Origin: a virus
Length of the DNA: 12,612 nucleotides
Strand: one strand, 5' to 3'
Virus genome (UHGV): UHGV-1964375
The notes beneath the pieces were generated by a model. The model saw only the letters and a list, made by a program, of their open reading frames with translations, did not search any database and was not told the origin of the DNA. Each line of letters starts with the position of its first letter. Positions within the stretch are counted from its first letter, which is position 1. A program made the position numbers and the translations under genes. Shown here piece by piece: positions 1 through 12,125 of this stretch.

Positions 1-59
1 ATTAATTCTTTCATCTGACGAATGAATTCTTCGTCTGACCAGTTATCTGTAAAACTCAT
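1..59 (-). CDS. hypothetical protein, N-terminal fragment only (continues past window start); begins MSFTDNWSDEEFIRQMKEL
   Basis: ATG at 59..57 on the minus strand overlaps the TGA of the upstream Kil-like ORF (ATGA). Open to the window edge. Does not resemble lambda Gam, which occupies this position in lambda. Confidence 0.3.
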   Translation of the reverse strand, partial: MSFTDNWSDEEFIRQMKEL

Positions 60-208
60 TTCCTGCGATACCACGGAAGGTTGATAGCTGATTTCATCGC
101 TTTATTTGCTTCAAGCCACATTTTTGAATCACCAATAAATCTGGCTATTACTGCTTTGTTTTGTGCCGCACGAAGCATCTGGTGATTGATGGCTATTTCA
201 TTGCGCAT
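56..208 (-). CDS. Kil-like small protein (50 aa), called mainly by position
   Basis: My own translation: MRNEIAINHQMLRAAQNKAVIARFIGDSKMWLEANKAMKSAINLPWYRRK. GGAGG lies 4 nt upstream of the ATG. The start overlaps the cIII-like 3' end by 16 nt, as kil does in lambda. Below the 60-aa cutoff of the ORF track. Confidence 0.4.
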   Translation of the reverse strand: MRNEIAINHQMLRAAQNKAVIARFIGDSKMWLEANKAMKSAINLPWYRRK

Positions 209-327
209 AACGCCTCCAGTTGTTTCTTTGCTGCTCTGATTAATTGTTTAACTCGGCGTGATAATTCAGATTCGTGCGGGTAGAAAGCGGACATGACGCC
301 GCTACCCGCGAGCTGAAAGTGCATCAT
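193..327 (-). CDS. cIII: CIII-like regulator (44 aa; FtsH inhibitor that stabilises CII in lambda)
   Basis: Internal start of the 193..378 ORF: AAGGAG, 6 nt, then ATGATG. MMHFQLAGSGVMSAFYPHESELSRRVKQLIRAAKKQLEALCAMK shares the AG...ES.L.R..K.L pattern of lambda CIII. Sits in the pL operon where cIII is expected. Confidence 0.5.
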   Translation of the reverse strand: MMHFQLAGSGVMSAFYPHESELSRRVKQLIRAAKKQLEALCAMK

Positions 328-410
328 GGGTAACTCCTTATATTTGATTGCATAACGAAAATGCCTCTCGTGAAGCATTATTGGTATGCGGTAAAGCCGC
401 GCTCAGGCGG

Positions 411-659
411 CTACTCTATTTCTTCTTCGAATGATTTTATTAGTCGGTCAATAACATCATCCGTTTCAATATCATTTCCGTCTGATTGCTTTAATACATC
501 TATTGATTCTGCAGCGGTAAATTCCATCGCTGTGAGAAACTCGACAATTGCACACTCAACGACATATCGTTCTTCATCTGTACGACATGAGATAAAAGAG
601 CATTTAATTGCTGTTATTACTTTTTGTTTAAGCTCTGCAGGGTAATCAGTTTTTATCAT
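411..659 (-). CDS. hypothetical small acidic protein (82 aa)
   Basis: Intact ORF with GGAG 6 nt before the ATG. About 20 Asp/Glu against 9 Lys/Arg. Lies between ral and cIII in the pL operon. No family recognised. Confidence 0.55.
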   Translation of the reverse strand: MIKTDYPAELKQKVITAIKCSFISCRTDEERYVVECAIVEFLTAMEFTAAESIDVLKQSDGNDIETDDVIDRLIKSFEEEIE

Positions 660-672
660 CGTTTACTCCGTC

Positions 673-700
673 AAAAAAAACTGCCCTCACATTGGAGGGC
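673..700 (-). terminator. intrinsic terminator within the pL operon (tL1-like), just upstream of the 82-aa gene
   Basis: Minus-strand RNA reads GCCCTC-CAAUGU-GAGGGC followed by U8. The plus strand has the A8 run at 673..680 and the stem at 683..700. Confidence 0.55.
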
Positions 701-820
701 AAAGAAGATTTCCAATAATCAGAACAAGTCGGCTCCTGTTTAGTTACGAGCGACATTGCTCCGTGTATTCACTCGTTGGAATGAATACACAGTGCAGTGT
801 TTATTCTGTTGTTTATGCCA

Positions 821-846
821 AAAATGAAGGCCGACTATGCGGCCTG
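821..846 (-). terminator. possible weak intrinsic terminator after the 121-aa membrane-protein gene
   Basis: Minus-strand hairpin AGGCCG-CAUAGU-CGGCCU directly after the TAA stop, followed by UCAUUUUUGG. Confidence 0.3.
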
Positions 847-849
847 AAA

Positions 850-1215
850 TTACTTAACCAATGATGCTGCATATTCGATAAGGTAAAGTTTTGGAGCAAG
901 CCAGATTTTCAGCCAGTCGAAATAATTGAAGAAAACAACAATAGAAGTAATCGCTATTCCTGATGTTACAAGTAGCGATAAAAGAACAACATCCGCATCA
1001 TCTCCTTTATTCCATGCAAAAATCATCAGATAAACACACGCTATAATCACCAATACACAGATAGCCTGAATTCCAGCTGATGATACGGCGTGCCACATCA
1101 AAAGCTGATGGATGACATCAGGAATCTGTGCCTGGCTAAATGAAACAGCCGCGTCTATTCCATTACTGGCTTTTTGCAGTAGTTCTACGAGAATCTTGTT
1201 TGCTTGTTCTTCCAT
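850..1215 (-). CDS. hypothetical small membrane protein (121 aa, 2-3 predicted TM helices)
   Basis: Intact ORF with AAGGGG 4 nt before the ATG. Hydrophobic stretches AICVLVIIACVYLMIFAW and VVLLSLLVTSGIAITSIVVFF. Located immediately downstream of ral. Confidence 0.6.
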   Translation of the reverse strand: MEEQANKILVELLQKASNGIDAAVSFSQAQIPDVIHQLLMWHAVSSAGIQAICVLVIIACVYLMIFAWNKGDDADVVLLSLLVTSGIAITSIVVFFNYFDWLKIWLAPKLYLIEYAASLVK

Positions 1216-2414: not shown

Positions 2415-3767
<1,353 letters not shown>

Positions 3768-11692: not shown

Positions 11693-11734
11693 CAGCATGA
11701 TTGCCACGGATGGCAACATATTAACGGCATAATA

Positions 11735-11763
11735 TTGACTTTTTGAATAAAGTTGGGTAAATT
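11735..11763 (+). promoter_or_regulatory. late promoter pR' (-35 TTGACT, 17-bp spacer, -10 TAAATT), with the Q-utilisation (qut) region
   Basis: TTGACTTTTTGAATAAAGTTGGGTAAATTTGAC closely resembles lambda pR' (TTGACTTATTGAATAAAATTGGGTAAATTTGAC as I recall it). Confidence 0.6.
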
Positions 11764-11798
11764 TGACCTAACGATGGATAAATGCACTCGTTAAATAA

Positions 11799-11834
11799 AG
11801 CCCTGAGTTAATAGCTCGGGGCTTTTTGCGTTTT
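11799..11834 (+). terminator. tR'-like intrinsic terminator about 60 nt downstream of the pR' start
   Basis: AGCCCTGAG-TTAATAG-CTCGGGGCT (9-bp stem with one G-U pair) followed by TTTTTGCGTTTT. Confidence 0.55.
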
Positions 11835-12125
11835 AAGCACGGCCTTTCTGAAAGCACATCAAACCAAATACCAGACAGACAAAAATAATCACCTTATCCG
11901 CTGTGGCTACGGTGCGGTGTGCTTTGCATAAAAGAAAACCAGCGCAATGGCTGGCTTCGTGAAGGCGGGTGGCAAGAGGCTGCGCTAACAACCTCCTGCC
12001 GTTTTGCCCGTGCATATCGGTCACGAACAAATCTGATTACTAAACACAGTAGCCTGGATTTGTTCTATCAGTAATCGACCTTATTCCTAAATAAATAGAG
12101 CAAATCCCCTTATTGGGGGTAAGAC

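What the first reader, a model, noticed from the sequence alone, without database searches (positions are those of the whole stretch)
411..659. Small acidic protein in the pL operon next to ral: candidate anti-restriction or anti-defence factor
The 82-aa protein has roughly 20 acidic against 9 basic residues and a C-terminal DIETDDVIDRLIKSFEEEIE tail. It lies in the N-antiterminated early-left operon between ral and cIII, where lambdoid phages accumulate host-takeover and counter-defence genes. Small, strongly acidic early proteins are often DNA mimics or inhibitors of host defence. I do not recognise the sequence.
Basis: inference. Interest (0 to 1): 0.55.

Follow-up and report, generated by a model that had tools for sequence, protein, structure and literature searches.

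The report
Small acidic early phage protein, untested label
This is a real, conserved 82-residue acidic protein made early by lambda-like phages; databases call it "anti-restriction", but that name has no experimental basis, the published tests so far argue against it, and its true target is unknown.

Summary
Window 411-659 (minus strand) encodes an 82-aa protein with 20 acidic and 9 basic residues (pI 4.3). It has a good ribosome-binding site and lies in the N-dependent early-left operon.

The protein is not unknown. It is identical to HK446 gp36, matches PHROG 14587 over its full length, and occurs in 58 of 5,426 complete E. coli genomes. It belongs to a small family of stand-alone proteins: 32 representatives among 1.84 billion. 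All aligned members are acidic, and the family is found in lambdoid prophages and in virulent Skatevirus-type siphoviruses.

AlphaFold gives a confident four-helix bundle, with no significant relative among solved structures or named viral proteins.

The "anti-restriction protein" label probably traces to a GenBank record that mislabelled the gene as "ral". I found no experiment behind it. The exact protein was in the Silas et al. accessory-gene screen as orf194, and no phenotype is reported for it. For EcoKI, only Ocr, Ral and ArdA were noted as hits. Skatevirus phages that carry the homologue remain markedly sensitive to restriction.

The gene travels with cIII-kil (33 of 35 loci), not with ral (8 of 35).

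My best guess is a narrow-spectrum acidic decoy against an untested defence or exclusion protein. Confidence is low.

The parts
411..659 (-). Coding sequence of the 82-aa acidic four-helix-bundle protein (PHROG 14587; identical to HK446 gp36 / AFH20664.1 and to Silas screen orf194).
   Evidence: ORF listing. Composition. PHROG match at E = 2e-48 over the full length. 100% identity in HK446, Kapi1 and ECP1. AlphaFold pLDDT 87.9 and pTM 0.76, with helices at 8-23, 28-44, 49-58 and 64-81. pN/pS about 0.05.
663..669 (-). Ribosome-binding site (GGAG within GACGGAGTAAACG, upstream of the ATG).
   Evidence: Read directly from the sequence. Conserved in all 24 other loci inspected.
681..702 (-). Intrinsic-terminator-like hairpin with a T8 run, immediately upstream of the gene. 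It corresponds to the lambda tL2 region, so transcription into the gene should need N antitermination.
   Evidence: Terminator scan. RNA fold. Conserved in all loci checked. Homology to lambda imm434 starts at window 674, which is lambda 33925, just upstream of the ea10 RBS.
703..849 (-). Conserved, structured non-coding leader. It contains a long perfect hairpin and a second terminator-like hairpin at 845-828.
   Evidence: RNA fold z = -4.25, with 0 of 200 shuffles folding as well. Terminator scan. The 120 nt upstream of the ATG (to about window 779) is near-identical in every locus checked. No Rfam family matches.
193..378 (-). cIII, the constant downstream partner of the gene. Its true start is probably at residue 18 or 19 of the listed ORF.
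   Evidence: Pfam cIII match at E = 4.6e-30. Follows the gene at a fixed +332 nt offset in most of the 33 of 35 loci where it is present.
56..208 (-). kil, the third gene of the conserved X-cIII-kil module.
   Evidence: Pfam Lambda_Kil match at E = 1.7e-20. Present in 33 of 35 loci at a fixed offset.

Best explanation
The gene encodes a non-toxic, strongly acidic four-helix-bundle protein made early in infection or induction. Transcription comes from pL and needs N-mediated read-through of the tL2-type terminators.

I think it most likely works as a stoichiometric protein binder. A conserved acidic face covers a basic, probably nucleic-acid-binding, surface on a host-encoded or resident-prophage-encoded defence or exclusion protein. 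That face is formed by E51 and D/E54 on helix 3 and by D67 and D71 on helix 4, which are joined through the invariant G61. The target would be something other than the classical restriction systems tested so far. In short, it would be a narrow-spectrum counter-defence or anti-exclusion decoy, a functional analogue of P22 gp17 in the same slot.

Shown: the gene, its selection, its acidity, its fold, its early-operon position, and the absence of broad anti-restriction activity. Inferred: that it binds a protein at all, the interface, and the kind of target.
For: 1. It is a real protein under selection: pN/pS about 0.05, and the family is conserved down to 24% identity.
2. Acidity is a family trait, net -7 to -20 in 26 of 26 members. 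Acidic positions E40, E51, D/E54, D67 (100%) and D71 are conserved, as is G61.
3. The fold is compact and confident, with no enzyme-like features. No catalytic family matches in Pfam, NCBIfam or PADLOC.
4. It is always at or near the start of an early or moron-like operon. Examples are N-...-X-cIII-kil in Escherichia, cI-N-X-cIII-ERF in Edwardsiella, a Cro-divergent X-RecT arrangement, the first gene of the X-ParB-like-MTase-RusA operon in Skatevirus, and the head of a 3-gene cassette within a tail module.
5. It sits in a mosaic accessory slot whose upstream side is hypervariable. The slot holds other unrelated small acidic proteins, including P22 gp17, annotated as 'allows growth on phage Fels2 lysogen'.
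6. It is patchy, present in 58 of 5,426 E. coli genomes, as expected for an accessory counter-defence gene.
7. No toxicity phenotype is reported in about 20 wild E. coli strains. This argues against an essential host target.
Against: - No counter-defence phenotype is reported for the exact protein in 45 phage-host combinations.
- No target is identified, and no complex could be modelled with these tools.
- The interface was inferred from a sequence alignment plus predicted secondary structure, not from coordinates.
- Early position and acidity are also compatible with regulatory or recombination-accessory roles.
Confidence: 0.35

Rival explanations
1. It is a general anti-restriction protein, that is, an Ocr/ArdA-like DNA mimic that blocks Type I (or other) restriction-modification enzymes. 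This is what the PHROG and RefSeq label implies.
For: - It is strongly acidic.
- It is early and in the same operon as ral in this window.
- In Skatevirus it is followed by a DNA methyltransferase gene.
- Database labels read 'anti-restriction protein'.
Against: - The label has no experimental source that I could find. It plausibly stems from the ECP1 record calling the gene 'antirestriction protein ral', yet the protein is unrelated to Ral.
- In the MG1655/unmodified-lambda EcoKI screen, only ardA, ral and ocr were noted as hits in three replicates, although orf194 was in the pool.
- There is no similarity to Ocr or Arn, and no Pfam anti-restriction family matches.
Confidence: 0.07
2. It is a phage-internal accessory factor of the early-left programme. 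It would modulate the lysis-lysogeny decision or host physiology together with cIII and Kil, or assist the recombination module (Erf, RecT, Rad52), rather than acting on host immunity.
For: - It is fixed in an X-cIII-kil module, usually at constant spacing, in 33 of 35 loci.
- It is directly followed by RecT, or lies just upstream of annealase genes, in distant members.
- In Skatevirus it heads an operon of DNA-metabolism genes: ParB-like, MTase, RusA.
- A phage-internal role would explain the absence of any phenotype when it is expressed alone in uninfected or heterologously infected cells.
Against: - Virulent Skatevirus phages lack cIII and kil yet keep the gene, so a cIII/Kil-specific role cannot be general.
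- The annealase type varies (Erf, RecT, Rad52) and is sometimes far away, so a specific recombinase partner is unlikely.
- Linkage to cIII-kil may simply reflect lambdoid gene order.
Confidence: 0.22
3. It is a host-takeover factor that binds a conserved, non-essential host DNA-binding protein by charge mimicry. Candidates are nucleoid proteins such as H-NS, HU or StpA, or a repair nuclease such as RecBCD or SbcCD.
For: - It has a conserved acidic face.
- The family spans Escherichia, Salmonella, Klebsiella, Edwardsiella, Enterobacter and Shewanella/Aeromonas-type phages. This fits a conserved target.
- It is near recombination genes, where Gam and Abc2 sit in lambda and P22.
Against: - Abc2, the anti-RecBCD protein, coexists in 22 of 35 loci, so the gene is not a replacement for anti-RecBCD function.
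- There is no similarity to any solved DNA mimic.
- The gene is rare, in about 1% of E. coli genomes, which fits a variable target better than a universal one.
Confidence: 0.15
4. It is not a functional gene but a chance ORF or a decaying remnant.
For: None beyond the lack of a known function.
Against: - It has a good RBS.
- Synonymous to non-synonymous changes are 5 to 1.
- Family members at 24-46% identity keep the same length and helix pattern across several phage types.
- The predicted fold is confident.
Confidence: 0.01

Closest known systems
PHROG 14587 ('anti-restriction protein'); HK446 gp36 (AFH20664.1), ECP1_057, and the Kapi1 homologue
   Same: Identical sequence and a full-length HMM match. 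This is the family the protein belongs to.
   Different: The family name is an annotation, not a result. The GenBank originals say 'hypothetical protein', except ECP1, which says 'antirestriction protein ral'. PGAP calls it 'hypothetical protein' in all the E. coli genome rows listed.
P22 gp17 (gene 17, 'allows growth on phage Fels2 lysogen')
   Same: It occupies the same slot immediately upstream of c3/cIII in the N-dependent early-left operon. It is a small acidic protein of 103 aa with net charge -17. It is the nearest working analogy for a counter-exclusion role.
   Different: No detectable sequence relationship, hhalign probability 0.3%. The composition suggests a different fold.
Lambda Ea10 ('ssb')
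   Same: The exact positional allele. Homology between this window and lambda resumes just upstream of the ea10 RBS. It is also small and acidic, 122 aa with net charge -14.
   Different: Unrelated sequence, hhalign probability 0.2%.
Ocr / ArdA / Arn-type acidic DNA mimics
   Same: Small, early and strongly acidic. Net charge reaches -20 in 86 aa in the Skatevirus branch.
   Different: No sequence similarity to Ocr or Arn, and no solved DNA mimic among the fold-search hits. No anti-EcoKI hit was noted in the screen where Ocr, ArdA and Ral all scored.
N-terminal four-helix-bundle cap of cobalamin-binding photoreceptors (AerR 7te2, CarH 5c8d, photocobilin 8j2w)
   Different: Sequence identity is 5-6%. 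There is no Pfam B12-binding_2 match and no Rossmann B12-binding domain. Foldseek does not rank it. I treat it as shared topology only.
Colicin E7 immunity protein (Im7)
   Same: A small acidic helical nuclease inhibitor. There is a single-sequence local match of residues 45-78, including TDDV(I/L)D, at E = 0.23.

Membership tests
PHROG 14587 | Full-length match to the family HMM. | tested here: met
   E = 2.2e-48, residues 1-82 on profile positions 1-82 of 82.
Ral (Pfam PF11058), as labelled in the ECP1 GenBank record | Sequence match to the Ral family. | tested here: not met
   Pfam gives no Ral hit for this protein, while the true Ral at 1275-1475 scores 1.2e-47. BLASTP of the two proteins gives E = 16.
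Ocr/ArdA/Arn-type anti-restriction DNA mimics | Sequence or fold similarity to a characterised mimic. | tested here: not met
Ocr/ArdA/Arn-type anti-restriction DNA mimics | High density of surface negative charge. | tested here: met
   Net charge is -11 in 82 aa. Family members range from -7 to -20. The spatial pattern of charge could not be examined because model coordinates are not exposed.
Ocr/ArdA/Arn-type anti-restriction DNA mimics | Relieves restriction of unmodified phage in vivo. | not testable with these tools
   Published data point the other way. orf194 was in the pool, but only ardA, ral and ocr were noted as hits on MG1655/lambda. Skatevirus Bas77-81 are markedly RM-sensitive.
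Lambda Ea10 / P22 gp17 (occupants of the slot upstream of cIII) | Same genomic slot. | tested here: met
   Lambda homology starts just upstream of the ea10 RBS position. P22 gene 17 lies directly upstream of c3.
Lambda Ea10 / P22 gp17 (occupants of the slot upstream of cIII) | Sequence homology. | tested here: not met
   hhalign probabilities are 0.16% for Ea10 and 0.31% for gp17.
Colicin immunity proteins (Im7-like) | A significant sequence or profile match that is collinear over the domain. | tested here: not met
   The single-sequence match has E = 0.23 over 34 residues. The family profile no longer hits Im7. The match is not collinear with the Im7 helix order.
B12-binding_2 helical cap domain (AerR/CarH) | A four-helix bundle associated with a Rossmann cobalamin-binding domain, plus a Pfam PF02607 match. 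| tested here: not met
Anti-CRISPR (Acr-Aca operon architecture) | A small acidic protein followed by an HTH 'Aca' regulator gene. | tested here: not met
   The small genes downstream of X in the Skatevirus, L007, L059 and L060 contexts have no HTH or any other Pfam match. In lambdoid phages the downstream gene is cIII.
Known anti-phage defence components (PADLOC) | Match to a defence-system protein model. | tested here: not met
   0 families matched at E <= 1.

The most novel reading that the evidence does not exclude
The protein is the founding member of a new anti-defence family with its own four-helix-bundle fold. Its conserved acidic helix-3/helix-4 face would neutralise a defence or superinfection-exclusion protein that was absent or non-limiting in the Silas and BASEL panels. 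Examples are a prophage-encoded exclusion system of the kind P22 gp17 overcomes, or one of the many recently described systems. On this reading, the slot upstream of cIII is a general 'acidic counter-exclusion' cassette site that has recruited at least three unrelated proteins: Ea10, gp17 and this one.
Probability: 0.3. Interest if true: 0.6.

Novelty: new member of a known kind. Interest (0 to 1): 0.3.

Why it matters
If the protein does disarm a specific defence or exclusion system, it would add a new structural family to the anti-defence repertoire. It would also give a handle on whatever system it targets, in both temperate lambdoid phages and virulent Skatevirus phages of Salmonella and E. 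coli.

The practical result today is a caution. The "anti-restriction protein" label has spread through PHROGs, RefSeq and pharokka-type annotations into many phage genomes, and I found no evidence behind it. Two published data sets point against it. Anyone using such annotations to predict phage host range or to choose therapeutic phages should not count this gene as an anti-restriction function.

Tried and rejected
2. **Zinc or metal site from the CxxxxC...C pattern.** The cysteines are not conserved across the wider family. Rejected.
3. **EF-hand-like loop at DGNDIETDD.** By eye, the residues do not fit the canonical 1-3-5-12 pattern, and D60 is acidic in only 23% of members. Rejected.
4. 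**A second paralogue in Skatevirus.** This was hinted by a BFVD hit to a 74-aa SeSz-2 protein. An HMM scan of the whole Bas77 genome found only a marginal hit to a signal-peptide protein, with hhalign probability 2.4%. Not supported in Bas77, and the SeSz-2 protein itself was not retrieved.
5. **Gam/Abc2 replacement (anti-RecBCD).** Abc2 coexists in 22 of 35 loci. Disfavoured.
6. **Acr-Aca architecture.** No HTH gene lies downstream. Rejected.
7. **Domain fusions or named distant relatives.** None were found in the exhaustive profile search or in the 5.8-billion-cluster search with the diverse profile.
8. **Searches that could not run or gave nothing.**
   - The search for related loci with the diverse alignment failed for lack of a conserved block.
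   - Per-gene fitness values for orf194 are not in the held supplementary files.
   - Literature searches for the accessions returned nothing.
9. **Terminology.** I first called the virulent-phage homologues 'Jersey-like'. The BASEL paper places Bas77 in Skatevirus, and I corrected this.

Full report
**1. The observation**

It has 8 Asp and 12 Glu against 6 Lys and 3 Arg, giving pI 4.27 and net charge about -11. It ends in DIETDDVIDRLIKSFEEEIE. A GGAG Shine-Dalgarno sequence lies 7 nt upstream of the ATG.

The neighbours are secure:
- kil at 56-208
- cIII at 193-378
- a 121-aa membrane protein at 850-1215
- ral at 1275-1475
- N at 1554-1880
- a 434-type cI at 2816-3448

So the gene lies between ral and cIII but is not adjacent to ral.

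On the minus strand there are three terminator-like hairpins between N and the gene, at 1286-1265, 845-828 and 702-681. No promoter-like site lies directly upstream. The last hairpin with its T-run ends about 20 nt before the RBS. Expression should therefore depend on N antitermination from pL. This is an inference from lambda biology.

The gene is real. The most diverged E. coli allele differs by five synonymous changes and one non-synonymous change, so pN/pS is about 0.05. Relatives at 24-46% identity keep the same length and helix pattern.

**2. It is not an unknown sequence**

- The protein matches phrog_14587 over its full length at E = 2e-48.
- It is 100% identical to proteins of phages HK446, Kapi1 and ECP1.
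- It occurs in 58 of 5,426 complete E. coli genomes, always on the chromosome. In every row listed, PGAP annotates it as 'hypothetical protein'.
- Relatives at about 41% identity sit in roughly 100 records of small virulent siphoviruses of Salmonella, E. coli, Klebsiella and Shigella. These include BASEL phage Bas77, which that paper classifies as Skatevirus.
- An exhaustive profile search of 1.84 billion representatives found only 32 family members. All are stand-alone proteins, most of 68-89 aa.
- A second search with a more diverse profile found no fusion, no name and no Pfam domain. It added members from Edwardsiella, Enterobacter and Shewanella/Aeromonas.
- Pfam, NCBIfam and PADLOC give nothing significant.

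**3. Where the 'anti-restriction' name comes from**

GenBank originals call the gene 'hypothetical protein', as in HK446, Kapi1 and the Skatevirus records. The one exception is ECP1, whose record calls it 'antirestriction protein ral'. The protein has no similarity to Ral, with BLASTP E = 16, and the true Ral is a separate gene in this window.

PHROGs, RefSeq and pharokka-style records then carry 'anti-restriction protein'. A literature search for the accessions and the PHROG id found nothing. I infer that the label is propagated annotation without an experiment behind it.

**4. Structure**

With an 18-sequence alignment, AlphaFold2 gives a confident four-helix bundle: pLDDT 87.9 and pTM 0.76, with helices at 8-23, 28-44, 49-58 and 64-81.

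- Foldseek against BFVD finds only the family's own Skatevirus members.
- Foldseek against the PDB finds nothing, with a best E of 0.9.

With 5-6% identity, no Pfam match and no B12-binding domain, I treat the AerR match as shared topology only. No solved DNA mimic or anti-defence protein appears in the lists.

A weak single-sequence match to the colicin immunity protein Im7 (E = 0.23) vanished with the family profile.

**5. What is conserved**

All 26 aligned family members are acidic, with net charge -7 to -20. The conserved acidic positions are:

| Position | Fraction acidic |
|---|---|
| E30 | 81% |
| E40 | 92% |
| E51 | 92% |
| D/E54 | 77% |
| D67 | 100% |
| D71 | 92% |

G61, in the helix-3/helix-4 loop, is invariant. 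E51 and D54 are spaced i, i+3. D67 and D71 are spaced i, i+4. Each pair lies between hydrophobic core positions, so the two pairs probably form one acidic face on the helix-3/helix-4 hairpin. This is an inference, because I could not inspect coordinates.

The three cysteines are not conserved, so a metal site is unlikely.

**6. Genomic context**

Homology between this window and lambda imm434 resumes at window 674, which corresponds to lambda 33925. That is just upstream of the ea10 ribosome-binding site. The gene is therefore a positional allele of lambda ea10.

Counts across 35 lambdoid loci carrying the gene (some are redundant) are as follows:

| Neighbour | Loci of 35 |
|---|---|
| cIII and kil downstream, mostly at a fixed offset | 33 |
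| ral within 4 kb upstream | 8 |
| Abc2 (anti-RecBCD) present | 22 |

The upstream neighbour varies: ral, an Nmad5-family gene, the 121-aa membrane protein, an antisense HK620p16-like gene, and others.

The 120 nt of non-coding leader immediately upstream, including the terminator hairpin, is nearly identical in all 24 other loci checked. It folds far better than shuffled controls, z = -4.25.

Distant members obey the same positional rule:
- Edwardsiella tarda prophage: cI-N-X-cIII-ERF.
- A metagenomic phage: a Cro-divergent X-RecT arrangement.
- Two other lambdoid-type contigs: X a few genes after N, or just before cIII-RecT-YqaJ.
- Skatevirus: the first gene of an X-ParB-like-methyltransferase-RusA operon.
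- A Shewanella/Aeromonas-type siphovirus: the head of a small opposite-strand cassette inside the tail module.

P22 carries gene 17 in the same slot, annotated as 'allows growth on phage Fels2 lysogen'. Both gp17 (103 aa, net -17) and Ea10 (122 aa, net -14) are acidic but unrelated to this family.

**7. Published experiments that bear on function**

The exact protein, AFH20664.1, is entry UDP0194 (orf194) in Supplementary File 3 of Silas et al., bioRxiv 10.1101/2023.04.06.535777. That study synthesised 200 phage accessory genes, expressed them in E. coli strains, and scored both host fitness and sensitisation to eight phages in 45 phage-host combinations.

- The follow-up paper, PMC12373910, lists the constructs that failed: orf25, 36, 52, 84, 88 and 94. 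orf194 is not among them.
- Neither main text mentions orf194.
- The named sensitising hits are ocr, aop1, gnarl1-3, ral, abc1, IpII and ardA.
- In the EcoKI control (MG1655 with unmodified lambda), all three replicates note 'ardA, ral, ocr are hits'.
- Per-gene values are not in the files I could read, so sub-threshold effects cannot be excluded.

[quoted passage not shown] Bas77 carries the homologue.

Together these results argue against a broad anti-restriction function. They do not test defences that were absent or non-limiting in those panels.

**8. Most likely function**

I commit, with low confidence (0.35), to the following. The protein is an early, non-toxic acidic four-helix bundle that binds and masks a basic surface of a defence or exclusion protein not covered by the published panels. 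This makes it a narrow-spectrum counter-defence decoy, analogous in role and slot to P22 gp17.

The main rival (0.22) is a phage-internal accessory role in the early-left programme. This is suggested by its fixed linkage to cIII-kil and its proximity to annealase genes. It is weakened because virulent Skatevirus phages, which lack cIII and kil, retain the gene.

The other rivals are:
- A host-takeover binder of a conserved nucleoid or repair protein (0.15). Coexistence with Abc2 and the gene's rarity count against this.
- A general restriction inhibitor (0.07).
- A spurious ORF (0.01).

**9. Novelty and verdict**

What is new here:
- The label lacks support, and two data sets contradict it.
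- The family is a self-contained acidic four-helix-bundle fold with a conserved acidic face.
- The gene travels as an X-cIII-kil module rather than with ral.
- The slot upstream of cIII has recruited three unrelated small acidic proteins.

If the function is counter-defence, this is a new family of a known kind. Interest is modest at 0.3. The decisive experiments are simple: deletion mutants, pull-downs and defined defence panels.

Noticed in passing
window 660-860 (minus strand): A conserved, highly structured non-coding leader lies upstream of the gene. It has two terminator-like hairpins (845-828 and 702-681) and a long perfect hairpin between them. The RNA fold z-score is -4.25. The 120 nt next to the gene is nearly identical in all 24 other loci checked and is shared with lambda's tL2 region. 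No Rfam family matches.
   Followed up: partly
window 850-1215 (minus strand): A 121-aa predicted two-TM membrane protein (phrog_3054, unknown function) sits between ral and the target gene, flanked by terminator-like hairpins. It was also in the Silas screen as UDP0047, with one residue different, and no phenotype is mentioned. It is present in only 3 of 35 loci carrying the target gene.
   Followed up: partly
window 411-659, compared with L004:1037-1405 (lambda ea10) and L018:28414-28725 (P22 gene 17): The slot immediately upstream of cIII holds three mutually unrelated small acidic proteins in different phages: Ea10 (net -14), gp17 (net -17, counter-exclusion of Fels-2) and this protein (net -11). 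This recurring 'acidic cassette' position may deserve a systematic survey.
   Followed up: partly
L001:2768-3016 (phage ECP1, KY979108.1): The GenBank record annotates the gene as 'antirestriction protein ral', although it is unrelated to Ral. This is the only non-'hypothetical' original annotation I found. It is the probable seed of the PHROG and RefSeq 'anti-restriction protein' label now present in many phage records.
   Followed up: partly
window 2415-2891 (minus strand): A 158-aa ORF overlaps the 3' end of cI. The corresponding lambda imm434 gene is annotated as 'Hex' repressor-protection protein, with a note that the start codon was wrongly inferred. The window ORF has a hydrophobic, signal-peptide-like stretch near its N-terminus ([19 protein letters not shown]). 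No PADLOC match.
   Followed up: no
window 193-378 (minus strand): The mechanical ORF for cIII is 61 aa, starting from an upstream ATG. The Pfam cIII match begins at residue 19, and E. coli annotations give a 44-aa product. The true start is probably the MMHFQ methionine. The kil ORF (56-208) overlaps the end of cIII.
   Followed up: no
L014:2702-3325 and L016:2703-3326 (E. coli prophages): In some prophages the gene directly upstream of the target is an 'Nmad5 family putative nucleotide modification protein'. It occupies the variable position that ral or the membrane protein holds elsewhere.
   Followed up: no
L013 (Bas77 genome), 16967-19738 and 11697-11945: In Skatevirus the homologue heads an operon with a ParB-like protein, a DNA methyltransferase and RusA. 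The same genome carries a separate 'Lar-like restriction alleviation protein'. Even so, the BASEL paper reports these phages as markedly RM-sensitive.
   Followed up: partly
window 361-645 (plus strand): A 94-aa Ser-rich ORF runs antisense to the target gene. It has no family match and is most likely a by-product of the acidic coding strand's complement.
   Followed up: no
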